64,000 nt of DNA from Paecilomyces variotii (lineage: Eukaryota): the NCBI GenBank assembly GCA_004022145.1, contig RCNU01000003.1; one strand, given 5' to 3'. Made by a program: the position numbers and the translations under genes. Numbering within the stretch: the stretch's first letter is position 1; the number at the start of each line of letters is the position of its first letter. Below, piece after piece: positions 1 to 24,876 of this stretch. The notes beneath the pieces are model-generated. The model did not search any database. It worked only from the letters and a program-made list of their open reading frames with translations, and was not told the origin of the DNA.

Positions 1-994
1 GATCTTTTGAAGCTCTGAAACATCTGGCAGTAAAGACGGCGCCATGACTCGTAGCTGTGAGCGTGACACGACAGGAAACAATGGAAATACATGTGTTAAG
101 AACCTAACAAGTTTTAGTAAACGAAAAACTGATCAGGAACTGCATTAACAATCGGTTCACATACAGTTTGAACAATCTGCGACCATCTTCCGTAGGAATG
201 AGATTTTCCAGTTCAGTCCTCAGATCGTTTTCTGAAGAAGATGGTGCGGTGTCACTCTTAAATCCCTCTACAAGGTCATTTGAAGCAATCATGAAATGAA
301 CAGGGACCTGCTCTGGTTCGCTGATATCAGCTACATTCCGAAAATGCACCTTGTAGAATCTGCGAAGGCCGTGCTCATCAAATCGACAGTGTCGTAGCAG
401 CCATGGATCTGACTCTGCAGATATTCCGAACAACTTCGCAGTGAAGTCTTGCATTTCATCAAGCGAATGATTTGTTGATGCATGATCCTCTCTCTGATAA
501 GTCTCGGAACCGACACCCTGCGGCGACGAGTTCTGATTGATCGAGGATGCAGGAGATAGATCCGGGGCACCCCCGATATCTACGCTATGAATGCCATTAA
601 TAGGTTTATCCTCTGTTGTGGGATCTTCTTCATGGTAGACCTGTGGCGATAGCACATCTTCCATGGCATCTTCGCCTGCTGATGTTTTCGGCGTAAAGTC
701 GCCATACCGATCCAGCGAGCTGTCTGGGAAGCCTTCAGATGCCGCTATAGCATCCCAATTGAGCATCTCTCTCCCCAAGTCGAGATCCTGCCTCTTCACT
801 TTATTGGATCGAGGTTCAACGGCCAGGACGAAAGTGCAGTCCACCCGTGCTGCTTTGCAACGTTCGCACGGGGGTTCATGATCGATCCGGCAGCCCAGCT
901 TGCGATGGCGACAGCGATCACATGGGCGACGTCGTTTAGATCGATATGGACGCGGACTGCCAGGAATGCAATTCGGGGAAGAGTTACTCGCCAT
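1..994 (-). CDS. Zn(II)2Cys6 fungal transcription factor (3' part runs off the window start)
   Basis: CDRCRHRKLGC...CERCKAARVDC six-Cys binuclear cluster. A GTATGT...TAG intron at 164-104 continues the frame into LFLTHVFPLFPVVSRS, typical of the start of the fungal-specific TF domain. Confidence 0.9.
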
Positions 995-1692
995 CGAACA
1001 AAGGAGTCCTTGCTTGTTGAATGTCGGAGTTGTCGCTCTGATCCATCACCCCATTCTATCGGGGAGAAAGCCGTACTCTAAATTCTTAGTCTTTGGATTG
1101 ACTAATAATTCGAGCTAATAGTTAATACGGGGTTATAATCATCGCGCTAGAGCTAAAAGTGTATAACCGGCTAACGGGGTCACAAAGCTGGGCCAGAGCG
1201 ATGTTCGCTCATTTTATTATCTGCGATACTTAAATACATCTGGGCAGATCTCCCCACTTTTGATTTCTTGATGCGGGGTTCACTGCGACATTGATAATCC
1301 CGAGTCGAGACTGGATGCCGCGGAGATTCTATTATATTTCTGAAGTATTTTGGGTTTATTCAAACAACACCGAGATCAACCTATGGCTTCCTATGATTGG
1401 AATGTGTTGCTCCCTTGTGATGATCTCGTATACAAGTCCCATACCGATAAATGTCGATGCACCTCCAACTGCAGACCCCAAGATCACCCCCGGACGCACT
1501 GTTACTGAGGAGCTGCGATGCTGATCAACGGTATATTTGATTTTTTTTTCCCTCCATGTGGCTAAAGAATGCCTCCTAGAACAGAACACACAGTGAATCG
1601 TTGACAGTTGCCGCGACAATGATCGCAAGAAGAAAGGCCAAGGCCACCCATCAATCGACTGACCCATATCATATCTAAATCCGGGAAATGAG

Positions 1693-2497
1693 TCATTGCT
1701 GGCAATATTTACTTCCAATACCGCGCTGGACTGCTGGTCGCGCGGCAATCCGGTCAATCCACTGCAGGAGATGCGGGAACTGCGACACTTCTTCCTTGGT
1801 GAAGCCGCTACGCTCCCAGTTCTTAACCCACGGCCACGTCTTGATGTCAGCCACGCTGTATTTGCCCTTTCCTTTTCCAGCCAGATACTCTCTTGGCTGA
1901 CCGGTAAATTTGCCGGAGAGTTGGATCTCGAGGACGCCGAACACGCGAAGGGTTTCGTTTCTGAATCTCGTGATTGCATCTAGAAAACCATAGAGTTAGG
2001 TTGATACCCACACGATGAAGGGAAGAGTAGATCTAGATTGGACACATACAAGGGATCTTTTCGGGTGCAACCTTGGTGAAATGGTTTACTTGGCCCTGAT
2101 ACGGCGCACCGCCTCCATGCCAGAAAAACAGCCATTGGATCGCCTCGTTGCGCTCCAGCTCGTCGCTGAAACCGAATTCGTGTCTCTTATCGTACGTGTC
2201 GATTAGATACAACAATTGAGCCGATGTCTCGATCACAGGGAAAGGCGGCGATCGCGTGTTGTCCACCAGAGTGGGAATACGTCCGTTTGGGTTCAGACGG
2301 AGAAACCACTCCTTCTTCTGCTCGTTCGTCGAGATATTGATCAGAGTCGTAGTCCATTCAGTTCCGTAGACATCTGCCAATTCTTCTAAGATAATCTGTG
2401 TCGCCTGGCCATTGGGTGTGCTCTGCGTGATAAGGTGCAGTCCCTTGGCCTCCTTGACCTCCTTGGGAGTCTCAGAAATATACAGTTTGTCAGCCAT
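1693..2497 (-). CDS. Glutathione S-transferase (Ure2/GST-II-like), 2 exons
   Basis: TPNG, LNPNGRIPTLVD, ETSAQLLYL and YSVADIKTWPW motifs. Intron 2049-1980 (GTATGT...TAG) joins the two ORFs in frame. Confidence 0.92.
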
Positions 2498-3166
2498 TTT
2501 CAAAGTTACAATTGACAGAGAATTAAAGGATAAGATGAAAGCTCCAATGCAACTTACAGGAGATGCGTGCACCTCTACTTATGTATCCTTGGCTTACAGC
2601 CAGGTGAGGGACGAATCGTCATCATTGCGGGGTTGTATTGCAGCATCTTGAACCCCGCGTCGGACAGAGCTGGTTTATTACAAATCAACAGAGAGTGAAT
2701 AGTTATCACTAGTCGCTGTTATAGCGATGATGATAAATGCGATGGTTTAGTCACGCCAGACTGGAAGAGTATGAGGATGTCCGGTCAACAGCAAACGTAA
2801 TACTGGGTCTGAAGCACGCATGCCGATTGCGTACATTTGGCGAAGTGTACAGTATAAAATTGCAATAAACATCAAACAAACTCCGCATCATTATCAGTCA
2901 AGAAATGAGTCGCTACTATTACCTTTGCGCAAATGATTTACCAGATAGATATTATTAAGCTCATACAAGTCCATAAACATTCAGTCAAATCCAGTCTCCT
3001 ATTATTCTCCTTCCGGATCTCGTGAACGCCCTCCCCAGTATCATGAAAATACTCTCTAAAACCCACACACCGCCAAAATAACATGATCCGATCCCTCTTC
3101 CCCAATTACATCCCCGATCTAAGCCCTACAGACAGTGAGGTCGGTGGGAAAACCAAGGAGATATTC

Positions 3167-4573
3167 TCAGGAGGAGACAGTAGCAGCAAGTCGGACGGTG
3201 AGGAGCTGGTTCACATTTGTGGATCCATCCTCTGCGAAGCAAGCAAGATCTTCAAAATCCTGGATATATCTATCGATTTCATATCCTATACCGCTGGCAT
3301 GGAATATCTCTGCAAGTCTGTAGTGCACATCCAAGAAGTCCGGATCTGGCAGCTTAATATGCTCATACCCAGGACTGGCGCGAAGCTGTAAGATTCGATT
3401 CTGCGGCAATGCCGGCAAGAAAAGATCAGTGAAGAGAGGATATACCTTCACTTCATATTCATCTTGGTTGCCCTGGAACGAGGAGACAAATTAGGATCTA
3501 TATTTGCAGGTGAATAAATGAGACTTCAGTCTATGCATACCGTAGGTCTTAGTGCAATGCGGAAGTCTCCGAACTCGTCATAAATGAAGGCTGCTAACGT
3601 TATAGTATTCGACGGGTCATTTATATTGTCCGTATGAATCTTTTTGTTAAGTCCTGGGAAGCAGTTATACAAGCAGTTCCAACGCTGCATTGCGTTCCTG
3701 TCCGAAGGCTATAGGATATTAGTAAAATAATGCAAAAATAAAAATAGATACATACCTCTTGATTTTTGTAGGACCCATAAAGGAAGGGGATGATATGTGC
3801 CACTTCTAGCTTCGCCACCGTGCCTTCTCCAGGAGGTACTTCGGCACCGGTATTCCTGAAATCACTTGCAAGCAGATACCTGGTGATAATACATCGTCTA
3901 CCATCTCTCTTCAATGTATTCTCATATATTTCTTGTTCTCGTCTAGCGGGAGAAGATAGATACGAGGTAACTTTCTCCGCTTGTTCTTGATGCAGCGGGA
4001 TAGGGGATTGAGGAATAATTGATTTTTTTAGATTAGTTCTCACTATATACAATGGTTAAAAGTAAATTTAAATTAATAGAAGAGGTCAAACTAACTTGGG
4101 ATGAATAGTGATTGGTATATATAATCGAAATAATCGTGCAGTCTCGCGTCATTATCCATACTTAAGATATCCCGCGTAAGGTTTATTGCTCCTAACTCTG
4201 GAAGGAACTCAAGGGAGGCCAATAATCCAGGTACTAGCAGCTTATCCCGACTGCGGTCTCCGAGAATATATCTTTGCACACGATCTATTGCATTGCGCTT
4301 CAAAGTTTCCCAATCTTCAGCCAGGGTAACGGAGAACCCAGACAAGTTCGACATTGTCGAAGGTTCTCTGTAAGACTGCACCTGCTCGCGCCGAAGGTGT
4401 TCCCGGTTGCGCTCCTGTTCAGGCTGCTTCTCGGGCTGCTTCTTGGACTGCTGTTCGGGTTCCTGGTGAGGTTGTTGTTCAGACTGTATATTCTGTCTCT
4501 GTCTCCGTCTTTTGGGCTTTTCATAGAGACCATACTCTGGCTCCTCGCCCCGTCGAGACCTTCTTAGCGTCAT
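3167..4573 (-). CDS. Fungal HNH_2-type nuclease-domain protein, 4 exons (possibly RIP-affected)
   Basis: Spliced frame gives RDGRRCIITRYL...LEVAHIIPF...NINDPSNTITLAAFIYDEFGDFRIAL...LPDPDFLDVHYRLAEIFHASG, the characteristic layout of fungal HNH_2 proteins. Three GT-AG introns restore an open frame. Confidence 0.75.
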
Positions 4574-4660
4574 CGCAGCGAGGATAAGATAAGAGAACGA
4601 TGTGGAGAAGTGGATTATTGGCTGGAGTACTTAACTCGAGGCTCGAGCCTTGACAAATTA

Positions 4661-5226
4661 CGGAGAAGTGTCTCAAAAATAATAATTGCGGAGCACTAGT
4701 AAGATTGACTGTTGACGGAAGTCGACTAGACGACTAGACCAAAAAGGAGCCTGGAGAACTCCTTAAGAGGTCTGGTCCTAGCTGGATCTAACAACTGTTT
4801 TTTGTTGGAACTTGGACACCCCCTCCGGAGTCCGGTGGCTCCTGTTGGGCGTCCTGTTCACTAGTGTCACGTGACCTAGGCGAGCCCATATACCTATACC
4901 TAGATTCAATCAAGCAAGCTTTCTCCCGCTTCCTTCATGCTAAGCTGGCCTTTAATTCTATGGCCTTTCTAGCTCTATTTGGAACCCTCCCGACCTTCTA
5001 TATATTCATTTCCTCCGCAGCGAATAACAGCTTTAATATGATCTAAGATACGTTCTATCTAAGCCTGGATTTTCTTTCCTGGGGAAGATCCTCCAATGCC
5101 TTATTCCACTATATTCTTCCAGTCTTATTATCTATCCCTATGAAGGAAAGGATTAGTATAGGGCGTGTATGAGAAAAACAGTCAATCTTACTAGTGCTCC
5201 GCAATTATTTTTGAGACACTTCTCCG
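4661..5226 (-). mobile_element. Non-autonomous, internally deleted Tc1/mariner-type DNA transposon (MITE-like) with ~50-bp TIRs and TA target duplication
   Basis: 4661-4713 and 5177-5226 are inverted repeats (identical except a 3-bp indel), flanked by TA at 4659-4660 and 5227-5228. The interior minus strand (~4980-5100) encodes a broken transposase C-terminus, DLPQER/IQA*IERILDHIKAVIRCGGNEYIEGR. Confidence 0.88.
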
Positions 5227-5488
5227 TAGTGTATGGGATAGACTAGAGTTTGGTCGGCACGGAGTTTATGTGGATTGTCTGCTTTTTGAGCGATGCGGTC
5301 GAACCGAATATGGTAAGTTAGTTAGCGCGCAACTATATAGGACAGTCCAAATTGGTAGCACTAGCAAAAAACATCTTCTCACCCACAGATAGGATAACTG
5401 CGGTTCAATAGGACAAGATTACTGAGTAATACAGGGTATCTAGAATACAGTTAAGCTCTGCTGGACCATAATCATCAAAAACCGCTGA

Positions 5489-5524
5489 TCAGCTGCATGT
5501 GTGTGTGAGACATGTTGATAATAA
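5489..5524 (+). repeat. 36-bp direct repeat, copy 1 (copy 2 at 13344-13379)
   Basis: tcagctgcatgtgtgtgtgagacatgttgataataa versus tcagctgcatgcatgtgtgagacatgttgatgataa, 33/36 identical. Confidence 0.8.
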
Positions 5525-5617
5525 GATAATAGAATGTCTGATAGATAATTTGGATAGTAAAGAGCTTTGGGACTTGGGATTATATAGTTATTTTTTTTTT
5601 ATCTTCATGTAAGCTAG

Positions 5618-6932
5618 TCATAGTAATTCATCATATTGATAACACAAGATCCCTGTCTGCGTATCCATCACATCATCGACACTGACATCAGATGCGAAGC
5701 CGTCGAAATCGAGCATATCTGTTATGTGCGCGGAAACAGTAGAGTTATTTCGTGAAATCCCATCGTAACCCCCTAAGGGGTTTCCATCGCGATGGTGACG
5801 CTGTTGCCAGATCCACCATACGCGATCAACCTGGCCATGATGAAGGAAGAAGACGGGGTCTGTGGTGACCATTAGTATGGACTATTACAGATGGAAAAGA
5901 ATGAGGACGGGATCCATAAGATAACATACCATTTGGCGCGGTGACCTTGGAGAAATCACCCTGGACAATATAGGGGATCGTTAGGTGAGAGGCCTGTTCC
6001 ACCTTGAGTAGAAAGTCATAATAATCCTGCTCTTCGAATACTCGGTTCAGTATCGCCGGCTGGACGGTCAGTCTTCCGACCCTTCGGATCACTTCATCGG
6101 CGAGGAAGCCTCTAGAAAGACAGTGAGGGTGATAATTCCCCTCATAGTAGGCGGCCTGAGCTCCTGCAAAGGGTCCGTCGAGAACACAGCGGCCGTTAGC
6201 AACGCTTTCAGCACCAGATCCGCTTCCTCCAAATCCAGTCTCATTGTCCCAGACCGGGGACTTGCTTAGATCCTCCCAATCTAAAGACCAGTTCCAATAC
6301 CTGTTAAGTGTGGAACGCAGATTGTCAGTCATTAGTAGAAACGGGGTGCCAGGTGAACACGCACGGTAGAACTCCACTATAGTTGCAGTGCTTGTGCAGC
6401 GCTTGCTCATACAGATGAATGAAATATCGATGCCACGGGAGAAAAGGCGCGGCATTGTGAGCTATATAGTCGGTTAGTCGTCGAATTCTCATCAAACTGC
6501 GACGAGCGCAGTAAGGCAGGACCTTCACACACAGTAGTTTCCGATACGACTATGGAGGAACACAAAGTCGTCATGGATTGTAGTCTCTGATCGCCTCGTG
6601 GATGGCGATTCAGTCAAACAGCGGGCTGCTTCTATATACGCCAACTTTTCACTTCGGTCCAGCGTCCTCCATTCCCGCCGGACAGTGGGATTCTTGCATA
6701 GTCTCGACGGCACAGATGACGACGGGGAAAAAGACAGAATAAAAGCAACGACAGAGAGGAAGAAGACACCGGCAGTGATCGAGAGAAATATCCACCATAA
6801 ACGATCCTGTTTTCTCACTGCTGCTTTCGAAGGTGGATTCGCATCTTCAGGATCGTCCGTCAGACCCGGGGACGCTGAGATAGTGGGAAGCCTGTCGCCA
6901 GAAAGAAAGCCGCATTTCGCAGACTCGTCCAT
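5618..6932 (-). CDS. Type-II membrane-anchored tyrosinase-like (type-3 copper) oxidase, UstQ/PhomQ-like, 4 exons
   Basis: N-terminal TM helix, then C-x-N-P-x-VRREWRTL, FVFLH, HNAAPFLPWHRYF, PYWNWSLDW, CLSRGF and APNDPVFFLHHGQVDRVWWIWQ tyrosinase motifs across the spliced ORFs. Confidence 0.9.
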
Positions 6933-7158
6933 TGGAAGAACATATCAATCGTACAATCCCTGAATGATTGCCTGCAAATATGTACTTTGTAGTTGGAGAC
7001 TGCAGCGTTTCTGAAACTCGCCACTCGGACAGAAACCCAACGACGACCACGAAACAGAAACCTGGACCACCATTTGCGGAAAATAGATACGACGTCAGAT
7101 CAGCAATTATCTGTGGATTTTGGAGATTCTGCAGCCAAGTAGGCCTACTGCCAAAACG

Positions 7159-7217
7159 GTCCTAAGTCCGACAGCACGTTAACATCTGGCCCCCATGCAA
7201 GCTTTTGGCCCCATGCA
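7159..7217. promoter_or_regulatory. Candidate cluster-specific cis-elements in the tyrosinase/DUF3328 divergent promoter
   Basis: TCTGGCCCCCATG (7185-7197), a variant TGGCCCCATGCA (7206-7217) and GTCCTAAGTC (7159-7168). The 13-mer and the 10-mer recur inverted in the precursor/OMT divergent promoter. Confidence 0.45.
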
Positions 7218-7459
7218 TCGGTAGCGTCGTGGGATTGAGCAGATCCCCAGCCACAGAGAGTCAGCAGTTGACACAAGACCTTAGTCTCCTGTCATTATTG
7301 CTAGACTCATGTGTGCTGTAATCTAGTTACCGTAACAATATCAGCCGATTAAAGGTTCCTAGTAGCGTAACTTAGGTTGCTGATTCTGTTATTCTTTCCT
7401 ATCTTCCTCTAAGCTCAGTGTTGTGCTTCAGATAGATGTCGATTTTAATATCTCTGAAG

Positions 7460-8453
7460 ATGGCTCCAGAATACAAAATCCTGTCTACAGGTGAATCAGA
7501 TGACGAGTCTGGTAATCTGAAATCTACCTCCCTAGAGCAAAAGAATCTCCCTCTGAAATGGAAACTTCTCATCTGCGGTCTGCTCTTATCGAATTTGCTC
7601 ATGCTGGCCGCCTTTTATACGAATAGAGGCTTTTCAGAAAAGGAAGAGTCGCACCCTGAAGCAGTGCCCACGAATTATGGTGAGTTATTGATACAAAGGA
7701 AGGAGAGGGGGGAGGGGGGGGGGTTGTCCATTAGTTTCCCCTCATTTAATGTCCAAAAGCTCTAATTGGAAAGGGAAACAGCAAAAGTCGATACATTAGA
7801 CACCATTTGGAGGCCCTTCTGGTGGAACACGGAATACAGCAGTACGAATGCCTCCGAGGCAGATGAGCTCTGGGACGCCATTCTTCCTTCTCACGGCTTC
7901 GTCGCCATGGATCGCACCTGGGCAAAGGAGAACCAGTGGCCCGAAAGCATGTACCTTCCATCGGATAAGAGCAAGGGAGTATACTTGCTGGAGGCGTATC
8001 ATTACCTCCATTGCCTTGTAAGCGAATCCTTATGAGACATTTGTGGCGTGAATGGAGACACAAACTGACTGATGGAATCATTTAGCGGATCGTCCGCAGA
8101 ACTTTCTGGGAAGCGGTCGAACAGAGACCTTTTACGCACAAACCGGGCGCTCATATGAACCACTGCTTTGATGCGCTGCGTCAGGTATGCCGTTGTATCA
8201 CAATGTGGGAGACCACTTGTAACTGATCGTGTTCTAGTATGTTCAATGCAACGCCGATAATACCCCGCTGTACACATTCGGGGACTTTACTGCCGGCGAC
8301 GGTCAAGTCCATAAGTGCAAGGACTGGGATCAGCTGCGCAGCTTTGCGACGCAGAATACAGCATGTTACCGGGATAGCGTGGAAGCAATTCCACTGGGCG
8401 AGCATTTCGGATTCTGCGACGATGGAAATGACGGCGTTATCGATTTACCTTAA
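7460..8453 (+). CDS. DUF3328 / UstYa-family oxidase 1, 4 exons
   Basis: N-terminal TM anchor, two HxxHC motifs (YHYLHCL, HMNHCFDALRQYVQCNAD) and a C-terminal HKCKDWDQL, all assembled with GT-AG introns. Confidence 0.92.
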
Positions 8454-8538
8454 AATGGCTATTTACTTTGAAAGATATTCTCTTAGTTGACGATAATGAC
8501 ATAAAAAAGATCTTCTACCGATATATTCATATCACTGC

Positions 8539-9475
8539 TTACATTCTCGACCGTGCATCGCTGTGGTTGTGCGCAGGTAGTAGTTCGTGGGGAATAAAGC
8601 CATGCGCGTCGAAGACCCTCCATTGTTCAGCCCATGCTTTGACTTCCTCGTAACTGCGGCACTGTCGGTCAAAACCCCAGTTCGGATTATTGTTTATCAT
8701 CTGAGTAGCTGGCTCCAGGTTGGCGTCTGCAGCGCACATGAGACTCTGGCGCAAGTAATCGAAGCAGTGGGCCACGTGAGGAGCTCGGTCGATGTTGAAG
8801 TCAAAGTCCTCGTTATCGGACGCAGTGGAGTAATATGCTCGACGGACTAGATACTGTAGAAGAGGAAGACAAATTAGAATATCAAGAATACTACCAGTAG
8901 AAACCGCAGGTTACGTACCAAGCAATGGAGCTGGTGAATGACACCAATCACAGACAATTCCGGAGCCAATTCGGGGTGCTTGATATATCCTAGTCCATCT
9001 GCAGATAGTGAGTGACGCTTTACAAGTAAACAAGGACGAAAAAAGACTTACTCGGTATGATGGCATTCCAGACAGTGTCAGGCTCGCTAGGCGGGGGAGC
9101 AGCTTCAAAGGCGGTATCGTGATGGACATGCTGCTTTGTCCAGTCGGAGAGAGGGACTGCCACTGTTATTCACATTCTTAAAAAAAAAGAGAGGGAGGGA
9201 GAAGGGTCGCGGAAAAAGACAAATGGACTATACATACTCTTTGGAATGGTTCCTGGCAGATCAGATGTGCTAGAACAATTTGTCGAGGGTAGGAAATGCC
9301 TCGCGATGACAACGCCCATTACCAGCCCGCAAACCCACAGAGCAGCACCTGCTAAAGCATAGAAAAAGACAGTATATGGTATGCTCTTAGCATTCCGATT
9401 ATTATCAATTTTTCCCTCCTCACTAGGCTCTACTGAGAGCTTAGAGTAACGTTGACCGAACAGCGAATCCATCAT
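8539..9475 (-). CDS. DUF3328 / UstYa-family oxidase 2, multi-exon
   Basis: MMDSLFGQRYSKL..., a TM helix, then FHQLHCL and HVAHCFDYLRQSLMCAADANLEP...WGFDRQCRSYEEV: twin HxxHC motifs. Internal exon boundaries are approximate. Confidence 0.9.
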
Positions 9476-9827
9476 TGTTGTGGTTGGGGTGTGGAGAGAA
9501 ACTAAGTATGAGCTGGACAGCGGAGGGACTAAGTACTTTAACTTAGTACTCACACCCCCATCTAGGTCAGGATGAAAACCGCCACTATATTGGCCAAACA
9601 AGTCAAGCAAGCAGATAACACGGCTTTACTGAGTCTTCCTTTTGAGAAAATTGCACTGAAATAAAGTCTAGTTGTATTTGTATTTGTATTTTATTTAGAT
9701 ATAAGATCAATTATGGTATCCTCTTAAAACGCCCTTGGGTCAAAAAGACCAAATCTCCATGCATATCACTTATTCGTCTAGCAGATTCGCACCCATCCCT
9801 TATAGTCTTGCTTCCCCGATGACTCGT

Positions 9828-10054
9828 TCAGTAAGTGTCGCCAATGTTCTTGAGATCGACCTCGTCAGCTGAGTTGACGCGAGGAACTGCAGATTAAGCA
9901 ACGTTAGAAGAGTTTATTGTTCGATGTTTCTGGCAATCTATTCAATTGGAGACCACCTACCGGAGTGTTCGTCGTTGGGGGCAGCAATTGGGCTGGCCAT
10001 GGAAAAGCCAACGAGGCCAAGGAGGAAGAAAGTGATAACCTTGACGGACTGCAT
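9828..10054 (-). CDS. 50-aa secreted peptide, candidate RiPP precursor: MQSVKVITFFLLGLVGFSMASPIAAPNDEHSVPRVNSADEVDLKNIGDTY
   Basis: Exon 1 10054-9961, intron 9960-9887 (GTAGGT...CTAAC...GCAG), exon 2 9886-9828 (TGA). Classic signal peptide ending ...SMA|SPI. It lies between a DUF3328 gene and the OMT. Confidence 0.8.
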
Positions 10055-10273
10055 TGTGGAATATGGATGCACAGAGAGAGCTGGTAGTGTTCGAATGGAT
10101 AGATCTGATATTGAGCACGCTTTCTGGTGTCTGCTTTGGAGGAGGAGAAGGATTGCTAGGTCTTTGCTATCGAGGATGGGAGGCCAACGACTACGGTGAG
10201 AGAGATTTAAGTATACAGCTGAATACAAGTTAATAATTAGATAGAGTCATGCATTGACACACAATAGGAAGGT

Positions 10274-10573
10274 CATGGGGGCCAGAAATGTTCCGCAGCG
10301 GGACGGGAGTGTGGAGAGCATATCGACTTTCCCAGCGTGATGACATGGATTCATGGGGGTATTGGGGTTCTGCTAGTTCTTAAGCTGATATGCATTGTTT
10401 TAAGAGCCGTTGTATGACCTAACTAATAATAATGCCGTTGAAAGGTCCAAGTATTCGACGGACCGCTGCAGATCCCTGGAGGCAGACTTAGGACGGGATG
10501 AAGCGCCTGCAGCACCGGAAGTTGGGGGCCAAACAGAAAGTTAGACACTAATGCTGCAGAAACAAGCATGGGG
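10274..10573. promoter_or_regulatory. Repeated CATGGGGG(CC) motifs in the precursor/O-methyltransferase divergent promoter
   Basis: CATGGGGGCCAGA 10274-10286, CATGGGGG 10352-10359, TTGGGGGCCA 10522-10531, GCATGGGG 10566-10573, GACTTAGGAC 10485-10494. Confidence 0.45.
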
Positions 10574-10855
10574 TTTGAGTATACTAGATCTTTTTATTTA
10601 CCGGTAAAAATAGCACATTGGTCTTGATGCTAGGTACGCACGAGACGATCTGTGACAGTTGCACGCGTGCGAGATTCGCGAGAACCATTAACAGTGATCA
10701 GCGTCGTAAGCTACTTGATGGGGTTTCTTCAACTATCTGCAGCTAAAAGTATTTCGAAATATTCCCCTTCGTTATCTATTAATGGTTAATTAAATTCGAA
10801 TCTTAATAACATACCACCGAAGAGAACCGAAGCGTCATCCTCAGTCAGTCACATC

Positions 10856-12360
10856 ATGGAGTCCAATTCCGAACTCTTGAAACTGGCTTCAGCGATATCC
10901 TCCTCCACAGCTACTCTAGATCGATATCTGAAGGATAACGGGATAGCAGAGCCGTCGTTTGATGCCAATGCTCCTCCTCAACTGGCCCTCAAGTCTGCTG
11001 AAGCATTCCAAGCCAAAAACTCAGCTATCAATGCATGCCTGGAGCTGCTCGATCGACTGCAAGGGCCACTGACATGTATGCTTCCTTTGGTAGGTTCTTA
11101 GTGATTGAAATGAATGTCAATTTAATAACTTGCTAATGCCTGGTTAGTACAATGGCAGCGCCCTGCAGGCGATTTCACGCTACAATATTGCCACCCATGT
11201 CCCCATTGACGGAAGCGAGATTTCCTATCCCGATCTCGCCAGCGCAGCCGGTATACATGTCGATGATCTGAAGCAGGTCATCCGCTTCGCTATCGTTTTT
11301 CATCGACTGTTTCAGGAGCCCCGGAAAGGATATGTCACCCATTCTGCCGGGTCGCGCAAGATCGCAGAAGACCCAATTGTGCAGGCTGGTGTTGGGCAGT
11401 TCGATGAATTTTATGGCTCGTTTGCCAGAGTGAGTTCGTCGTGAAATTTAGATCATGCTGTTGCTGACAGTCAATCTCAGACGGTGGACGCCATGACCCA
11501 ATTCCAGGGGCATGAGCCAAACGAAACGGTGCGTCAGGGAAACTATCCTCACTCTTTTATCTTCTTCGTTTTCTGATTAATTGACAGGGTTTCTGCCTCT
11601 CCCACAATACCAACGAGGATCTATTTAGCTATCTTCGCTCGCGGCCAGCCGCAGCGAAGCAATTCTCCGAGGCGATGAAATTCTATACAGGTCCGATTCC
11701 GGCATATTCACCGAATCTCCTAGTGCAGGGCTATCCGTGGCATCAACTTGGGAAAGATGCCGTCGTAGTTGACATGGGGGGTTCAACTGGCCATGTCGCA
11801 CAGTTAATTGCGCAGGCAGTGCCTGACATTCAGGTTATCGTCGAGGATCTCCCACATGTTGTCACAGAAGCAGAATCAGCAAGAGCCATGGACAACCAAG
11901 AGCTGCGACAACATCGTCCAGTCCTGTTCAAAGCACATGATTTCTTCACGCCGCAAACAGTTGTCGCCGATGCATACCTGCTCCGCTGGGTGCTGCACGA
12001 CTGGCCAGATCACTACGTCCTCAAGATTTTGCGCCAGCTGGTGCCTAGTCTCCGAAAAGGAGCACGTGTTATTATTAACGAAAGCTTGTGTCCTGAATCA
12101 GGGTCATTGCCGCTGGCAACGGAGCGATACATCCGGTAGGGTCATACTGATAATAGATCTTATAAAAAAGAGGAAGCTGACGACGGTTGATCTCCAGATA
12201 CATGGACTTGATGATGTTGGCCATTAACAAATCACGATTACGGGACGAGGAAGAGTGGCAACAGCTGTTTCGCGAAGCGGACCCCAGGTATGGACAATTG
12301 AAGTGCTGGACACCGGAGGGATCAGCATTGGCCATTATGGAAGTAGTCTGGGAGGGGTAA
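10856..12360 (+). CDS. SAM-dependent O-methyltransferase (Methyltransf_2 family), 5 exons
   Basis: N-terminal dimerisation region (LxxYLxxxGxxEPSFD), VVDMGGSTGH SAM motif, HDFFTPQ, LRWVLHDWPD, then MDLMML...R.EEEW. Confidence 0.92.
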
Positions 12361-13343
12361 AGAAGCCATTGTATCTAATCCGTCGATCTAGCTGAGAAAT
12401 ACCGGTTGGCTTTTTCCAGTGGAGACGGTAACATGTATCTAATTACTTGGTTCAAGTAACTAATTACGACAGACCGTCAAGACGGTGGCTGGAAGATAGG
12501 GTCCGTGAATCAAAGTAATTAGAGTATATAACCTTATATGTTAGTGTGCCAACATACAACATTTCTCGGCTGGAACCGCAGATCCCTGAACGCCACGAGC
12601 CATAAGTCATCTTAGTGCGCTCTAGTTTGATCTTTGGCTCTTGACTCTTGAGTACAATGTGCAATTCCCGCCCCCACGCGGTCGATCTGCTTATTCCTAT
12701 CACGCCAAACAGTCGAATAGAACTGTTACATCGACCTGAAAATTTGATCAGCCCCTCAGATATTAGACCAGCCCCTCAGATATCAGTTTTGGAACCCTAT
12801 TCATTCATATCTGTCCTCCAGTAGGGGCACTGCCCTGATAGTAACACAACGTCGTCCTAGGACCCCGAAACAGTCCAATGATAATACATGAGTTCTGCAG
12901 GAAGGCCTGACGCCGAGATACTTACTGCCGCCCTCTGCGCGTGCCAATGTTTGTGCGCAATATAGGTAGACTCCGTCTGACCCGCTTCGAACCGGGCCAC
13001 GCAGTACCTAGATAGACTTCGGATTTGTCCACATTGGGAAGATATTGTTCTTTACTTAGCGTAAAGTTTCTAGTATGACCTTGCATCGAGTCTAGGTAGG
13101 TTCTTCTACACCTTAATGATCCCGCCGCGGAATGGAGGATTTTGAATTGCCGTCCCAACCACGCGATCGTATGATCTAAGTACATCGAGTGGCTGGAAGA
13201 ATTGTGCAACATGTTGATCGTTGGCACTCACTGAAGAATTTCCTACGGAGTATTAAATCCATTTATAATTCAGTTAACTATCCGACACAGGGTGAAAAGT
13301 TCCGCCTTAGTGATATCATACTAAGTCATCTTTTAGTCCTTTG

Positions 13344-13379
13344 TCAGCTGCATGCATGTGTGAGACATGTTGATGATAA
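13344..13379 (+). repeat. 36-bp direct repeat, copy 2 (copy 1 at 5489-5524)
   Basis: 33/36 identity to 5489-5524, same orientation. Confidence 0.8.
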
Positions 13380-13576
13380 TTGGGCGTGATAACAATTGAC
13401 TGATTCCGGTAACCATCGCATCATTTTTTATTACCCTATCGTTACCACCTAATTATGAAATGAAAAGCTGGTTGGATTGTTTCTATAATTTAATTTACTC
13501 TGAGAAGTAGAGCCGTGCTATGCGTTACCTCTTTTAGTACATGAGATAGATCTATTTGTTCCTTTCTTGCTACCAA

Positions 13577-14599
13577 TCATACAGGCACCGTAACATCTTT
13601 CAAAATCTGGAGAATACTATCGACGTCTTCCTTCGGAGTCCGACCCATGCCACACTCTGTAGCTACTCCAAAATCGCGTGGGACCACGGAACGGGCGACT
13701 TCGATACGTCGCTTTGTTCCCTCCAGGTCATGAGGATGCACGAGGCCCAGGTAGAGCCGTCCATTGGGGCCGATGTTGAGCTCCTTCAGCGGTTCGAAAT
13801 AGGCCTCGTCGTCCCGACTCTTGGGGACTGGGAGGTGCACCCAATCGACAGGATGCTTAAGACGGCCAGCGATCGAGTTGGCCAGATCAACGATTAGCCC
13901 TGTGTCCTGTGGTTCGACAAAGTGCTGATGGTTAAGGTCTCCGTAGCAGAGATGGAAGCCCAATGGAACATTTGCCGGAATATTAGCGCTGATGCGCTCC
14001 AACCGGTCGAGGATGCCTTCCTTGACAGGGGAGAACCAGGCTTTGAGGAAGGGCTCCTTGATATTACCGCGGTCGAATTCGAGCGCTGTGACCTCGAAAC
14101 ACACGTCCCACTGCAGCGCCAGGTCTTCCGCGGGAATCTTATCGATGATGTTCGCCAGCGAATCGAGCATTCGCTTTTCGTAGAGAGGCTCTAACTGTGC
14201 GTGGAATTCACTTCTGGTATGGCCTTGAATGCAGGCCAGCGGTGGAGGCAGCGCGACCAGGAACCGCACACCTGGCGGGATGATATTTTTCTTGCGTAGT
14301 TCGACAAAAGTCTCGTAGGACTTCAATGCTACCGTATCATATTCTGTTGGTGGAATCGACTCTAGAGTAAAGCCTGGATGGTCGGCCGGCGGTTCGGTGC
14401 CGCCCAAGAAATACTGGATGGTCTCCTTTGGAAAACGAGCGAGCTGCCATCCGATATAGTTGCCTCGATCGCCCGTTTCGCCATCGGGGATGCAACGAAC
14501 TCGCCCAGGGAGACTGTTGGCAACTGTAGTGAAGACTTCCTCCGCTGACGACAGCGGAATACTCCCCACTAGCAAGACTTCGGACGGAGCAGCTGTCAT
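13577..14599 (-). CDS. Intronless MetE/UROD-like (cobalamin-independent methionine synthase C-terminal-like) TIM-barrel protein
   Basis: 340-aa ORF with LLVGSIP, IPDGETGDR, LQWDVCFE, GFHLCYGD (HxC), LYLGLVH and VATECGMGR (C-terminal Cys). This is the Zn-ligand pattern of the MetE superfamily. Confidence 0.75.
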   Translation of the reverse strand: MTAAPSEVLLVGSIPLSSAEEVFTTVANSLPGRVRCIPDGETGDRGNYIGWQLARFPKETIQYFLGGTEPPADHPGFTLESIPPTEYDTVALKSYETFVELRKKNIIPPGVRFLVALPPPLACIQGHTRSEFHAQLEPLYEKRMLDSLANIIDKIPAEDLALQWDVCFEVTALEFDRGNIKEPFLKAWFSPVKEGILDRLERISANIPANVPLGFHLCYGDLNHQHFVEPQDTGLIVDLANSIAGRLKHPVDWVHLPVPKSRDDEAYFEPLKELNIGPNGRLYLGLVHPHDLEGTKRRIEVARSVVPRDFGVATECGMGRTPKEDVDSILQILKDVTVPV

Positions 14600-15190
14600 A
14601 TTTCGAAGCGGTGGAGTGTTGTCTTTAAAAAGAAATCGAAAAGTAGGCTAATAATATTGTCTATCTCAGTTTTCTCCCAAGGTTGGCAAGTGCCACGAGG
14701 AGAGACCAATGGCCTTATGAACCTTTGGGGGGGTTATGCTCTTTGAAGGGAAGATGTGATATGATATCCGGGGTGGGGAAGTGTTTTTGTGAGGGAACCG
14801 GGGCAAAGTAAGTACGTACTTACTTAGCAGACAATCGTCCAGGTCGTTCTTTTTGGACCCCATCCGGCTAATGAGATCACTAACACACGTTCTCAGAAGG
14901 AGACATGTAAGCACTATACATAGATACATACAATGCAGATCATCAAGTCGCAATACCACTTTTTTTGGACAATAAGCTAGAGCTGCTCCTCCCCGTCCAT
15001 CAGCCCTGCCCCAGTCCTTGCACCGGAGAAATGGCCCCCAAATCTATATGCAACTAGTCCATCAGATGAAGTGGTGAAGTGTCGTAGACAGCCACAATGC
15101 AGATCGCAAAGTAAGATGTTCGCTTTTTTAAACTATCCATGACTGCCCCTCTCCGCTGTCATTCAGAATTAACCACTGTATCTGTCAACC

Positions 15191-21341: not shown

Positions 21342-24300
21342 TCAAAACTGCCACTGCTGCAACCAGTTTCGCATCAATGACGCGGAGACTGGCCCCAGCG
21401 ATCTCATGGTTTCACTTGCTTCTTTGGCTCGCTGGACATCCAGCGGCACTGAGAGCTTGCTTCCCTCGTCCAGCAGCCCTTGATAGAAACTCAGCAGTTT
21501 GAGAGCAGGTTTTTCAGCGATATCCATGTTGCTTGGGCTTTTGATACTTTCAAGTTCAGTAAGCCACGCTGAAGACTCGACCGGCTGGACAGTATACTTG
21601 TCCTGGATGGCCGGGATCAGTGTTGACCATGGTGTTCGTTCCGGATTCACCAGATGAAACACGGCCCAGGGAGTATCTGACTGATTTACGTGGCGCATGG
21701 AGATTATATCCATCATAATTGAGGAGAGCGTGTCCTGTAAGTCGCAAGGTCAGCACGGACTGCAGCTGACAAACAATACCTTATGAACGACAAATCTTAC
21801 CACAGGCACCCAATCAACCTCCATCGAGCCCAGTTGATTAGGGATTTTCCCCATTGCTTTCGAGGTCACAATAATTGTTGGCAGCCATTCGTGCGGATTC
21901 CATTGTCCGCTGGCAGTAGTCGGGCCCGCGATTTGTCCTACGCGGTAGATAGTCGTAGGGACGCGAGATCTTCGCGATGCCTCCAGACAGATGCACTCCG
22001 CAATATATTTTGACTCAGCATAGCCTTGTGGGAGAACCACCGAGCTGCCCATCGGTTGTTCTGGAACCAACGGTCCAAGATCTGGGGTCCAACCGCCCAC
22101 TGTACTGATAGAAGAAACAAAGTGAATATGGGTTCTCTGGCGACTGCTCAAACTAAAATCAACAAAGTGGCGCACACCACGAATGTGAGTGTCTTCGAAG
22201 GAATCAACGGAATGATTGAAGTCGACTTTCCATGCATTGTGAATAATAGTATCGACGGAGTCAAGGAGCTCCCTGTATTTTTCCTCGCTGAGACCAAATC
22301 GTGGTTCTCCGAATGAGGCTTGAAGGAACTCTACTTTACCCTTCAAGTTACTCGCATCCGCGTACAGGCCCTTTCCTTCAAAGCCTTTCTTCTGTCGAAG
22401 CTCGGCGTCTGAACGATTGAGACAGTAAATTTTGGAAACTGAATCGCTGTTCAACAGGGTATAGAGCAGATAGGTTCCCAGCGAACCAGTCGAACCAGTC
22501 AAAATCACAGTTGAGGGTAAATCTAATCCATTATCAGGGAGGGCTTCCTCCTTGACCGGGATATCGGACGTATACTTTTCGACTAACATCTTGATCTTGT
22601 CTTCCCGCGGTATACCATCCTGAACTTTTCCCTCTAAGATATTAACGAGAACCCAAGCCAACTGCTCTATTGTCGGGTTAGCGTAAATTGTCTGAGCAGT
22701 GATCGCCCCCGGTTTTATTTCCGGCCGACGAAGCTGTATGCCCTTTTGCAGCGTTCGAGAGATCTGAATAGTCATTAAAGAATCAAGGCCAGTACTATAG
22801 AGGTCTTGATTGATCAGAACTTCAGACTTTCCCAAGACACGGATTACGGTCTGGCGTATATACTCTGTAATGGTTTCTGGGTCCAAGGTCTCGGGAACAT
22901 GATGGTCCAAGTCATCTTCCAGTTCTGTAGCATAGAGTGCATCAATCTCTTTCTCATAATCTCGAAGAACAGCTCTACGCTGAATAGTGCCTTTCGGAGT
23001 TCGTTTGAATGGTTTGGTCTTTGAGGCGAGTCTGATATTGCTCTTCACGATCCGACCATGGGCAGCAATAGACTGATTTGCCTCTTGGACAGTCGGCCAG
23101 ATTTCCTCAATGAAGATATTGTCGTCCATTTCTGGGACGCCCTGCTTTGGTTCCACGAGCAGCCCAGCTTGAAATCGGGACTCGCCGACTACCAGTGCCC
23201 CTCGAACCAGGGGATGTCCTGCGATGATTGTCTCCATTCCGACAGGATTGAATTTCTCGCCGTTGCTGAGGACAATAACATCATCCTTTCGCCCGTAGAA
23301 TTTCCATAAACGCGGGTTTGTCGGATGTTGAATATACAGATCGTTGGTTCGGTACACTTTGATTTCGGGGTAAATATGGAAGACACCTTGAAACTCGCGG
23401 GAATTCTGCTGTCGAGGAATGACCATCTCGTACAGACCGTCGCCAAAATCCTGCATATCCAGCCCGTATGCTTCATTCCATTCAAAATAACCCCAGTTGG
23501 CTTCGTCCTCCGGCACTAAAGATGGCACCACGCCAATCTCACTAGCACCAAGAAGAGGTACGATCTGAGTATATTGGCGCAGCCGCTCTCCCGTCTCTGG
23601 TGCGAGAGGCGCACCTCCAAAATTCACTGTCCTAAGTCCTTTGAGACAGTTCAATGCATCACTGGAATGACTCAGGTCTTCCAGGATCGAGGGTGGAAAG
23701 ACCGCAGCTGTGGGACGGGTTGTCTGTAGAAGTCCTACCAAGTGTTCCACCGATAGGGGCTTGTCAGGGCCATACAGGACAGGGATCCCGAACCAAATTG
23801 ACAAGACAAAGGAGAGTAGTCCCATCCCATGGAAGAAAGGTGTCGTGGATAGTAGCAGGTCTTGTGAGCTCAGAGTGATGAATGCAGCTGGCTGGCGACC
23901 AGCCGGCCATGCAAGCTGAGCAAGATTATCGATGCACATCCAGAAACCGTTTGTAAGATTAACTGGTTTCGGCATGCCTGCATGAAGAGAATTAGCACAT
24001 TATTGCATTATGTCCGTCATACACCTACCTGTGGTTCCGGAACTATGGATGATGCACAATGTCTCGTTTTCTGCATCAGCATAAGATTTGGTGTACGCAT
24101 ACGAGCGTTGTCCACCCTCATTGCTGAGAATTTCCTTCAAAGTCGGAACCCGGAAGACTTCCAAGGAAGGCAAAAGTCCTTTTATTTCCAATGTTCGTGT
24201 TTCTCGTTCCTCGCTGAAGAAGAACTTGTTGCAACTTGTTGCTTGTAAGAGATGAAGATGGGCTTCATCCGAATTTCTGGTAGAAGTGAAGAGAGCCTTC

Positions 24301-24640
24301 ACAAGAAGACGATCAAACGGTTGGCTTTTCTCCAATCTTGATGAACTGTTAATTGCCTTACCTGATACCCAGTTTTCTGGCATGCTAGCATGAAAATGAA
24401 ATAGCGCACATCGTTGCTTCCCATATAAGCCAGCGTCTCCCGGGATTGTGCCGGCCCAATAGTGTTCTCAATCCACCAACTCATGAGGTTCACTGCTTGT
24501 GCCAGATCCTTCATCGATAGATCACGGAAGCCACTGGTCAGCTCTGATCCTTGCGGAATCACCGCGAACAGTTTGTCAGGAGTCTTCTCAGCAAGACGGT
24601 CGAGGGTTGTTGCGAGGAGTCTTTTCCTTTTAGTCTCCAT
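21342..24640 (-). CDS. NRPS-like carboxylic-acid reductase (A-T-R), 4 exons
   Basis: IIHSSGTTG|MPKP, PFFHGMG and GRKDDVIVLSNGEKFNP (adenylation); GLDSL (phosphopantetheine Ser); TGSTGSLG, HNAWKVDFN and GYAESK (SDR reductase). Confidence 0.92.
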
Positions 24641-24876
24641 GCTGTCTGTGGGCTTTAACAAATTAATTGCTTTCAGAAATAAATGCTGTTTATTATGCAA
24701 ATGGTGGAGAAATCGTAAATGAACCAGTGTGTGTGACTCGGAATCGCCTCTCTTGAAGGGGTCATTCTCATGAGTTATATAGTTATGGTAAGGCAACCCA
24801 TCCTCCGGCGGTTGGTCCAAACTACTAGGCATCTTCCGTTTCAACCGGCATGTCGAGCACATCGAGTGGTAGTTGT

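What the first reader, a model, noticed from the sequence alone, without database searches (positions are those of the whole stretch)
5618..12360. Compact five-gene candidate fungal RiPP cluster: tyrosinase-like + 2x DUF3328 + peptide + O-methyltransferase
Seen: five contiguous genes including two divergent pairs, with both DUF3328 proteins carrying twin HxxHC motifs and TM anchors. Established: paired UstYa/UstYb-type oxidases plus a tyrosinase (UstQ/PhomQ) form the Tyr-ether macrocycle of dikaritins such as ustiloxin and phomopsin in the secretory pathway. Inference: this is a minimal dikaritin-like pathway with an unknown product. No transporter or peptidase is inside the block, and the tailoring enzyme is a phenolic-type O-methyltransferase rather than the N-methyltransferase of the ustiloxin/phomopsin clusters.
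Basis: partly seen in the sequence, partly recalled or inferred. Interest (0 to 1): 0.82.

Follow-up and report, generated by a model that had tools for sequence, protein, structure and literature searches.

The report
Fungal single-core peptide biosynthesis cluster
Five neighbouring genes in the mould Paecilomyces, also seen together in Aspergillus, look like a pathway that turns one tiny secreted peptide into a new ring-shaped compound, using a precursor without the repeats that such pathways normally have.

Summary
The five genes are real and intact: a membrane-anchored UstQ/PhomQ-type tyrosinase, two UstYa (DUF3328) oxidases with twin HxxHC, a 50-aa secreted peptide and an O-methyltransferase (OMT), in Paecilomyces variotii. 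RNA contigs show all 10 introns of the first four genes spliced (one study; 6 of 10 in a second). No OMT intron was among the joints shown. Accession order puts tyrosinase, peptide and OMT in the same arrangement in Aspergillus sclerotiicarbonarius, and tyrosinase and OMT 2-4 genes apart in 5 of 9 taxa with the tyrosinase orthologue. Two peptide homologues (Aspergillus, Talaromyces) keep 13 of the last 19 residues, ending D-L-K-x-I-G-D-[TN]-Y, but only 5 of the first 31. It fails the Kex2-repeat definition of dikaritins and is missed by most annotations. Best reading: a dikaritin-like pathway making a Tyr-crosslinked, probably O-methylated peptide. Product, crosslink and protease are inferred. 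The enzyme set alone has in-silico precedent (lichen Clan R1, precursor never found). New variant of a known kind.

The parts
5618..6932 (-). TYR: UstQ/PhomQ-type tyrosinase, 369 aa, type II membrane anchor (48-66); exons 6932-6533, 6461-6365, 6300-5930, 5859-5618; CuA H127/H135/H144, CuB H271, P275 in place of His, H296/H297
   Evidence: 3 of 3 introns spliced in X17, 2 of 3 in X19, polyA ends at 5549/5566; 41% to PhomQ1'
6933..7459 (.). Divergent promoter TYR/Ya1; two copies of TGGCCCC(C)A (7187, 7206), GACTTAGGAC (7168, - strand), GCAGATCCC (7239)
7460..8453 (+). Ya1: UstYa/DUF3328 oxidase, 256 aa, TM 36-54, HYLHC and HMNHC; exons 7460-7679, 7782-8017, 8086-8184, 8238-8453
   Evidence: 3 of 3 introns spliced in X17 and in X19
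8539..9475 (-). Ya2: UstYa/DUF3328 oxidase, 245 aa, TM 40-58, HQLHC and HVAHC; exons 9475-9238, 9156-9052, 8998-8919, 8853-8539
   Evidence: 3 of 3 introns spliced in X17, 0 of 3 shown in X19
9828..10054 (-). PEP: 50-aa putative precursor; hydrophobic signal-like N-terminus (6-16), one C-terminal core candidate, no repeats, no KR/RR/KK/RK; exons 10054-9961, 9886-9828
   Evidence: intron spliced in X17 and X19; homologues P0138, P0139
9831..9886 (-). Exon 2 of PEP: conserved segment V-x-R-V-x-S-x-[DE]-E-V-D-L-K-x-I-G-D-[TN]-Y (acidic leader-like part, then Lys, then the presumed core ending in Tyr at 9833-9831)
   Evidence: 13 of 19 positions invariant in 3 sequences vs 5 of 31 in the N-terminal part, Fisher p=0.0003
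10055..10855 (.). Divergent promoter PEP/OMT; two copies of TGGCCCCCA (10284, 10531, - strand), GACTTAGGAC (10485), GCAGATCCC (10468)
10856..12360 (+). OMT: Methyltransf_2 O-methyltransferase, 424 aa, soluble, SAM motif VVDMGGSTG and LHDWPD; exons 10856-11089, 11148-11429, 11481-11528, 11588-12135, 12198-12360
   Evidence: synteny; splicing not seen among the joints shown

Best explanation
A five-gene, dikaritin-like RiPP pathway of Eurotiales moulds that works from a single-core precursor. SHOWN: gene anatomy, splicing of four genes, conserved gene order, conservation of the peptide's C-terminal 19 residues. INFERRED by analogy to ustiloxin: (1) PEP enters the ER by its signal peptide and meets the three membrane-anchored copper enzymes in the secretory lumen. 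(2) The acidic stretch before the Lys serves as recognition sequence. (3) TYR ortho-oxidises the C-terminal Tyr, and Ya1/Ya2 close a side-chain macrocycle from that ring to an upstream residue, most likely an aryl ether to the beta-carbon of the invariant Ile (a ring spanning I-G-D-T-Y), one of the two perhaps adding a further oxidation. (4) Host proteases encoded elsewhere cut at single basic residues, after the invariant Arg and/or Lys; the Aspergillus homologue's Tyr-Lys-Val tail fits a cut after Lys followed by trimming. (5) The cytosolic OMT caps the free catechol hydroxyl after the peptide reaches the cytosol by an unclustered transporter. Expected product: a 5-7 residue methoxy-tyrosine cyclopeptide. 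Odds: PEP is the substrate of TYR/Ya1/Ya2 about 0.84; OMT also acts about 0.62 overall; the Tyr-Ile ether in particular about 0.35.
For: Gene order by accession: P. variotii TYR RWQ96633, PEP RWQ96636, OMT RWQ96637; A. sclerotiicarbonarius TYR PYI04309, PEP PYI04306, OMT PYI04305, one contig; A. pseudonomiae TYR/OMT KAE8406589/85 and KAB8259679/83 (three genes between), GAB1200379/81, GAB1210724/22; P. variotii No. 5 GAD93058/55; P. lecythidis KAL1878849/47. The A. sclerotiicarbonarius peptide was found by a blind phmmer search of 1.84 billion proteins and only afterwards seen to lie three accessions from TYR. Peptide conservation is concentrated in the part that would be leader plus core, Tyr invariant. 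The syntenic tyrosinases form one clade (11 of 40 rows, SH-aLRT 100, quick tree), the syntenic OMTs lie in one Eurotiales clade (16 of 56 rows, SH-aLRT 100, quick tree), and the OMT is 70% and 67% identical in the two Aspergillus clusters. Spliced RNA of TYR, Ya1, Ya2 and PEP in one run, and of TYR, Ya1 and PEP in a second study. The two divergent promoters share 13 9-mers against a mean of 4.3 in real non-coding pairs (24 of 2000 pairs reach 13); 4 of 7 window copies of TGGCCCC(C)A lie in them. UstQ+UstYa+UstYb suffice for the first cyclic ustiloxin intermediate (PMC6514808, passages). HxxHC pairs bind the catalytic copper of lumen-facing DUF3328 enzymes (PMC12435403, passages). Cyclisation from a C-terminal aromatic residue to an upstream residue is known in asperipin-2a and victorin.
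Against: No product, knockout or enzyme data exist here. No OMT intron among the 15 joints shown, and run X19 has no cover on OMT. 3 of 9 taxa with the TYR orthologue (Rasamsonia byssochlamydoides, A. sclerotioniger, A. steynii) gave no OMT-clade hit, and in A. oleicola the two lie on different short contigs. Seven OMT-clade taxa (A. crustosus, sydowii, versicolor, spectabilis, eucalypticola, ellipticus, P. angulare) gave no TYR-clade hit, and in A. heteromorphus the tyrosinase hit is of another clade on another contig. The syntenic A. sclerotiicarbonarius OMT has Gln at the usual catalytic His. The genes between TYR and PEP in Aspergillus were not identified as DUF3328: only the count fits. 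The Talaromyces peptide's neighbours are unknown: no Talaromyces TYR among the 120 of 148 hits listed and no Talaromyces OMT among the 54, and PMC13608686 (passages) lists no RiPP region for T. stipitatus. The OMT is cytosolic and the block has no transporter. The peptide family is only 3 sequences. The promoter motif was picked after the fact.
Confidence: 0.62

Rival explanations
1. The pathway is four genes (PEP, TYR, Ya1, Ya2). The OMT is an optional or unrelated neighbour that shares the PEP promoter region and acts on another phenol, or only in some species or conditions.
For: No OMT joint among those shown while four neighbours are spliced in the same run. 3 of 9 TYR-clade taxa gave no OMT-clade hit; 8 OMT-clade taxa have no linked TYR-clade hit. 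His-to-Gln in the A. sclerotiicarbonarius OMT. Cytosolic enzyme, lumenal substrate, no transporter. The epichloecyclin methyltransferase gigC is absent or broken in some clusters (PMC10540207, passages).
Against: OMT is adjacent to PEP or 2-4 accessions from TYR in 5 of 9 taxa from two genera. The shared promoter words sit in the PEP/OMT spacer. Lichen Clan R1 independently pairs tyrosinase, two DUF3328 and an OMT (PMC12048977). Six joints were hidden, and lack of contig cover is not evidence of silence.
Confidence: 0.22
2. PEP is not the substrate. It is an unmodified secreted peptide, and the oxidases and OMT tailor something else: a Kex2-repeat precursor encoded elsewhere, or a small aromatic molecule, for example from the A-T-R NRPS-like gene 9 kb away.
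For: DUF3328 enzymes also act on non-ribosomal peptides and polyketides (PMC12048977; PMC12435403). PEP lacks both hallmarks of known precursors, repeats and dibasic sites. An A-T-R gene lies at 21342-24886. The rest of the genome could not be searched.
Against: PEP stays between the oxidase block and the OMT across genera, and its Tyr-ending C-terminus (14 of 19 identical to each homologue) is better conserved than TYR itself (55% to A. sclerotiicarbonarius). The NRPS-like gene is separated by MetE-like, rhodopsin-domain and TTI1 genes. No ORF with a signal-like start and 3 or more KR was found in the six frames of the window.
Confidence: 0.12
3. A decaying relic of a repeat-type dikaritin cluster whose precursor collapsed to one non-functional unit and whose tyrosinase lost a copper ligand.
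For: Single unit, no Kex2 site; only five of six copper histidines; repeat number drives ustiloxin yield (PMC10512285, passages).
Against: All five frames are intact; the His-to-Pro change is family-wide and shared with PhomQ1'; the single-unit form is the same in three genera; four genes are spliced; 21 of 24 P. variotii annotations keep TYR and OMT three accessions apart.
Confidence: 0.04

Closest known systems
Ustiloxin pathway (UstA, UstQ, UstYa, UstYb, UstM; Aspergillus flavus, Ustilaginoidea virens)
   Same: One tyrosinase plus two DUF3328 proteins next to a signal-peptide precursor, and one methyltransferase; Tyr and Ile in the core. Two of three homologues read A-I-G after the Lys, as in the ustiloxin core YAIG (core from PMC6514808); homology of the cores was not testable.
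   Different: UstA has 16 Kex2-flanked repeats and an N-terminal Tyr that UstM N-methylates. Here: one unit, no dibasic site, C-terminal Tyr, an O-methyltransferase, and none of the later tailoring, transporter or peptidase genes.
Phomopsin pathway (PhomQ1/Q2, PhomY, PhomM; Diaporthe leptostromiformis)
   Same: TYR is 41% identical to PhomQ1' and shares the TM anchor and the HxxxP copper-B motif.
   Different: TYR sits in a separate, well-supported clade. Phomopsin uses a repeat precursor, more UstY homologues and N-methylation.
Asperipin-2a (AprA, AprY) and victorin
   Same: Cyclisation from a C-terminal aromatic residue back to an upstream residue (FYYTGY, PMC6514808; victorin Phe to Leu, PMC9233826; passages).
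   Different: Repeat, Kex2-type precursors; asperipin has one DUF3328, a reductase and a transporter, and no tyrosinase or methyltransferase.
Epichloecyclins (GigA, GigB, GigC, KexB)
   Same: Small cluster; single-repeat gigA-like genes are predicted in Aciculosporium take and Periglandula ipomoeae; a Tyr-to-nitrogen crosslink is proposed from preliminary NMR (PMC10540207, passages).
   Different: Kexin gene in the cluster, no tyrosinase, lysine N-methylation.
Lichen RiPP Clan R1 (Parmeliaceae; in silico only, PMC12048977)
   Same: Tyrosinase, two DUF3328 and an O-methyltransferase; no repeat precursor found, and the authors raise a single-core precursor as a possibility.
   Different: There the OMT lies between the two DUF3328 genes and an FGE-sulfatase is included. 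The Letharia and Usnea tyrosinases retrieved here fall outside this clade; whether they are the Clan R1 genes was not established. Here the precursor is identified, spliced and conserved.

Membership tests
Dikaritin (RiPP from a KEP precursor cyclised by UstYa homologues; definition in PMC10512285) | One or more DUF3328/UstYa proteins with twin HxxHC next to the precursor gene | tested here: met
Dikaritin | Precursor has an ER signal peptide | tested here: met
   Hydrophobic stretch 6-16 (mean KD 2.58) after a basic residue, same layout in both homologues; hydropathy only, no SignalP run
Dikaritin | Precursor has tandemly repeated core units (KEP: 3 or more, PMC7329392) | tested here: not met
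   One unit in 3 of 3 sequences; no paralogous unit in the window; single intron confirmed by RNA
Dikaritin | Dibasic Kex2 sites (KR, RR, KK, RK) flank the core | tested here: not met
   None in P0136, none visible in P0138 or P0139; only single invariant Arg and Lys
Dikaritin | Aromatic residue (usually Tyr) in the core | tested here: met
   Tyr invariant at the end of the conserved segment in 3 of 3
Dikaritin | Product is a side-chain macrocycle formed by the UstYa homologue | not testable with these tools
   needs reconstitution, MS and NMR
Ustiloxin/phomopsin-type cluster (five gene classes of Ding et al., as cited in PMC12048977) | Tyrosinase, multiple DUF3328, methyltransferase | tested here: met
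   the methyltransferase is O-type, not the UstM/PhomM N-type
Ustiloxin/phomopsin-type cluster | Transporter or peptidase in the cluster | tested here: not met
   none among the 25 ORF pieces from window 104-20598 scanned; the one MFS gene found is at 49213-50763
UstQ/PhomQ-type tyrosinase | PF00264 domain, N-terminal TM anchor, HxxxP copper-B motif as in PhomQ1' | tested here: met
   UstQ of A. flavus itself was not among the hits and was not compared
Phenolic O-methyltransferase (Methyltransf_2) | SAM motif plus catalytic His-Asp-Trp, rather than an OMT-fold pericyclase | tested here: met
   VVDMGGSTG and LHDWPD present; best PDB hits are HpiI and LepI (their role as OMT-fold pericyclases is recalled), and HpiI lacks the HDW motif in the alignment; His kept in 14 of 19 clade records checked. 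Activity untested
Lichen Clan R1 | Orthology of tyrosinase and OMT with the Parmeliaceae cluster genes | tested here: inconclusive
   Letharia and Usnea tyrosinases are 46-50% identical but outside the clade; the Clan R1 sequences themselves were not compared

The most novel reading that the evidence does not exclude
This is the first clear member of a hidden class of fungal RiPP precursors: about 50 aa, intron-split, single-core, processed without dibasic Kex2 sites, invisible to repeat-based surveys and to most gene callers. Such peptides would be the missing substrates of many orphan tyrosinase/DUF3328 clusters, such as lichen Clan R1. The chemistry may also be new: the invariant Lys six residues before the Tyr could be part of the core and add to the tyrosinase-made quinone (a Lys-Tyr N-aryl macrocycle), with the catechol then O-methylated, a modification not listed for dikaritins in the review passages read.
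Probability: 0.22. Interest if true: 0.85.

Novelty: new variant of a known kind. Interest (0 to 1): 0.66.

Why it matters
Few ascomycete RiPP families are characterised (five as of PMC10512285, 2022), and genome mining for them is built on Kex2-flanked repeats (PMC7329392 required 3 or more). A conserved, transcribed cluster whose precursor has one core and no dibasic site would show that this filter misses a whole precursor type. It offers a concrete answer to the 'missing precursor' problem reported for lichen clusters with the same enzyme set. The gene is easy to miss: 21 of 24 P. variotii annotations have only two genes between TYR and OMT where this window has three. At 6.7 kb with a single substrate site it is a clean system for dividing the labour between a UstQ-type tyrosinase and two DUF3328 enzymes, and for finding which protease releases the core. 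The genes are transcribed in food-fermentation communities, so any product may occur in fermented foods; its bioactivity is unknown.

Tried and rejected
No whole genome is held, so trans-acting precursors, proteases and transporters could not be searched. Two scans of metagenome contigs, with the tyrosinase and with its clade alignment, gave 0 confirmed loci of 48 and of 34 pattern matches: no homologous DNA was read, and synteny rests on accession order and contig length only. No homology search was left for Ya1/Ya2. Of the 5 hits of the peptide search, 2 were dropped as repeat-protein artefacts (P0137, P0140). The ESM Atlas gave nothing for the peptide (top 0.76). No PDB relative for the Ya2 exon. 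The AlphaFold model of TYR was too poor to use (pLDDT 50.7). A TYR-peptide complex prediction was never run. Contig depth was not used to rank expression: the PEP joint contig is far deeper than the enzymes' in X17 (4776 vs 88-249) but not in X19 (187 vs 30-322), and the tool states that depth cannot rank genes. Lack of OMT cover in X19 and low cover in X17 is not taken as proof of silence. Run X15 shows flat cover and no splice joints, read as DNA, and was ignored; 4 of 24 listed runs were laid. The 36-nt direct repeat that brackets the block was considered as an insertion scar but not adopted, since the right-hand neighbour is the same in P. variotii No. 5 and P. lecythidis. Botrytis OMT (49%) and tyrosinase homologues are not adjacent (BCIN_15g03170 vs BCIN_15g03960 and BCIN_13g02250), so Botrytis is not counted. 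The missing copper His as a sign of decay was rejected. Isoaspartate formation on the core Asp by the OMT was considered and dropped: the enzyme is Methyltransf_2, whereas the PAMTs are recalled to be of the PIMT type. Searches of earlier scan findings returned nothing. The careful OMT tree did not finish; both trees are quick trees.

Full report
OBSERVATION. I rebuilt the five genes from the sequence. TYR (- strand, 6932-5618) gives 369 aa with a hydrophobic anchor at 48-66. Ya1 (+, 7460-8453; 256 aa) and Ya2 (-, 9475-8539; 245 aa) each have an N-terminal anchor and two HxxHC motifs, and hit Pfam UstYa (Atlas 0.94). PEP (-, 10054-9828) gives 50 aa from two exons. OMT (+, 10856-12360) gives a soluble 424-aa Methyltransf_2 protein with SAM and HDW motifs. 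TYR/Ya1 and PEP/OMT are divergent pairs, and Ya1 and Ya2 end 85 nt apart. Protein hits at 98-100% identity place the window in Paecilomyces variotii.

TRANSCRIPTION. Of 24 runs listed I laid four. Metatranscriptome X17 has splice joints for all 10 introns of TYR, Ya1, Ya2 and PEP, at the predicted positions. X19, from another study, has 6 of 10 (2 TYR, 3 Ya1, 1 PEP). PolyA ends mark TYR (5549, 5566) and Ya1 (8493). None of the 4 OMT introns is among the 15 joints shown; 6 more joints were not displayed. So four genes are transcribed together in at least one community sample, and OMT transcription is not shown. Run X6 carries 5180-15000 on one contig with 165 differences, so the block is present in a diverged strain. 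Contig depth cannot rank genes and was not used.

THE TYROSINASE. One copper-B histidine is replaced by Pro (H271-x-x-x-P275). This is the norm among its homologues (Pro in 108 of 120, His in 2), including PhomQ1', so it marks the UstQ/PhomQ type and not decay. Eleven of 40 sequences, all those with the SHLTIPY motif, are set apart by a branch of SH-aLRT 100 (quick tree). The named ones, with the P. lecythidis cluster member, come from nine taxa: P. variotii, P. variotii No. 5, P. lecythidis, Rasamsonia byssochlamydoides, Aspergillus sclerotioniger, A. sclerotiicarbonarius, A. pseudonomiae, A. steynii and A. oleicola.

THE PEPTIDE. A search with exon 1 returned the full 50-aa record P0136. phmmer of P0136 against 1.84 billion representatives gave 5 hits: itself, two repeat-protein artefacts that I dropped, and two short proteins, P0138 (49 aa) and P0139 (55 aa). 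These are from Talaromyces stipitatus (TSTA_088010) and A. sclerotiicarbonarius (PYI04306). In the three-way alignment 13 of the last 19 positions are invariant (V-x-R-V-x-S-x-[DE]-E-V-D-L-K-x-I-G-D-[TN]-Y) against 5 of the first 31 (Fisher p=0.0003; three sequences only, and signal peptides are expected to vary). All three have a signal-like N-terminus, one such unit and no dibasic site. P0139 has a Lys-Val tail after the Tyr. This is the profile of a leader-plus-core precursor, but not of a Kex2-processed repeat protein.

SYNTENY. No homologous DNA could be fetched, so I used accession order. P. variotii: TYR RWQ96633, PEP RWQ96636, OMT RWQ96637. A. sclerotiicarbonarius: TYR PYI04309, PEP PYI04306, OMT PYI04305 on one contig, the same order with two genes between TYR and PEP. 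A. pseudonomiae: TYR and OMT four accessions apart in two annotations and two apart in two others. P. variotii No. 5: three apart. P. lecythidis: two apart. That is 5 of 9 taxa. Against: three taxa gave no OMT-clade hit, A. oleicola has the two genes on different short contigs, eight OMT-clade taxa have no linked TYR-clade hit, and no Talaromyces TYR or OMT appeared. These searches depend on shared words, so misses are weak evidence. The intervening genes in Aspergillus were not identified. Among 24 further P. variotii annotations, 21 have TYR and OMT three apart (one by locus tag), one 18 apart, and two showed no OMT accession. Three apart leaves room for only two genes, so the peptide is probably unannotated there (inference).

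REGULATION. The two divergent promoters share 13 9-mers. Markov simulations give 3.7 (0 of 200 reach 13); real non-coding pairs from the window give 4.3 (24 of 2000 reach 13); at 10-mers the excess is weak (120 of 2000). Four of the 7 window copies of TGGCCCC(C)A lie in these 1.3 kb. This is modest, after-the-fact support for common control that includes the PEP/OMT spacer. No regulator lies in the block; a Zn2Cys6 gene at 104-1045 was not linked to it.

MECHANISM. Established (passages read): UstQ with UstYa and UstYb turns the ustiloxin precursor into the first macrocycle, and the trimming proteases are unknown (PMC6514808); DUF3328 enzymes are lumen-facing, copper- and oxygen-dependent dimers using the HxxHC pairs (PMC12435403); UstM and PhomM N-methylate Tyr (PMC11285071). 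Inferred: PEP is oxidised in the secretory pathway at its C-terminal Tyr by TYR and cyclised by Ya1/Ya2, most likely by an aryl ether to the invariant Ile; host proteases cut at the single Arg and/or Lys; the OMT then methylates the free catechol hydroxyl. Kex2 can cut sites with other residues at P2 (PMC2515848, passage), so the invariant x-Arg may still be a kexin site; a monobasic-specific yapsin is the alternative (only a reference title was seen). How a cytosolic OMT meets the product without a clustered transporter is unexplained. The syntenic Aspergillus OMT has Gln for the catalytic His, which may mean that methylation is dispensable. I give 0.62 to the five-gene pathway, 0.22 to a four-gene pathway with a bystander OMT, 0.12 to PEP not being the substrate, and 0.04 to a relic.

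COMPARISON. It works like the ustiloxin/phomopsin early pathway. It is not a dikaritin by the definition 'KEP precursor cyclised by UstYa homologues' (PMC10512285), since repeats and dibasic sites were tested and are absent. The enzyme set has precedent in silico: lichen Clan R1 has tyrosinase, two DUF3328 and an OMT, and its authors found no precursor and suggested a single core (PMC12048977; passages, parts 2 and 4 of 7, supplements 3 and 4 of 4 held; their sequence file and figures were not seen). Single-repeat gigA-like genes are predicted in two Clavicipitaceae, in clusters that keep a kexin gene (PMC10540207, passages). A C-terminal aromatic donor is known from asperipin-2a and victorin (PMC6514808; PMC9233826, passages).

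NOVELTY. Locus tags and the core motif gave no relevant paper; the three supplements of the KEP survey that were searched hold none of the ids or motifs (PMC7329392; long cells may be cut). Topic searches showed no description of this cluster in their listings. A Paecilomyces metabolite review showed no matching peptide in the passages read (PMC7663581). PMC6941272 and PMC13608686 (passages) describe other putative clusters. The library lacks most subscription papers, including the primary reports by Nagano 2016, Ding 2016, Ye 2016 and Chiang 2025, which I did not see; a prior listing of this cluster there cannot be excluded.

VERDICT. A real, conserved, transcribed cluster and a strong candidate for a new variant of the DUF3328/tyrosinase RiPP pathways, notable mainly for its single-core, repeat-free precursor. 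The chemistry is unproven but directly testable with four or five genes. Interest 0.66.

Noticed in passing
window 5489-5524 and 13344-13379: A 36-nt direct repeat (33 of 36 identical) brackets the whole block, 7855 nt apart; no third copy in the window; the best of 50 Markov simulations was 25 of 36. Both copies lie just 3' of minus-strand genes. Unexplained.
   Followed up: partly
window 4659-5228: MITE-like element with near-perfect terminal inverted repeats (4659-4713 / 5177-5228); many contigs with loose ends pile on it, so it is multi-copy.
   Followed up: partly
public records KAJ9218302 (TYR) and KAJ9218320 (OMT): In one P. variotii annotation TYR and OMT are 18 accessions apart instead of 3, while the MetE-like gene still follows OMT: possibly a large insertion inside the cluster, or a numbering artefact.
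   Followed up: no
window 13577-14599 (-): Intronless 340-aa MetE-like gene (name from a UniRef record; no Pfam hit), next to the OMT also in P. variotii No. 5 and P. lecythidis, covered by RNA contigs in X17. A role in supplying methyl groups is a guess.
   Followed up: partly
window 21342-24886 (-): A-T-R NRPS-like (carboxylic acid reductase type) gene, 9 kb from the block.
   Followed up: no
window 26486-27519 (-): GH18 chitinase with a chitin-binding domain; short for this type, with several frame changes between the ORF pieces; may be partial.
   Followed up: no
window 104-2578 (-): Zn2Cys6 transcription factor and a glutathione S-transferase gene 3-4.6 kb left of the block; the GST is spliced in X17 and X19. 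No link to the cluster tested.
   Followed up: no
P0153, P0244, P0245, P0246 (A. eucalypticola, neoniger, costaricaensis, tubingensis): A sub-group of the OMT clade reads MNW in place of HDW: possibly a changed or lost methyltransferase chemistry.
   Followed up: no
window 3167-4630 (-): Multi-exon gene with no Pfam hit; by recall it resembles fungal HNH-endonuclease-like proteins (not tested).
   Followed up: no
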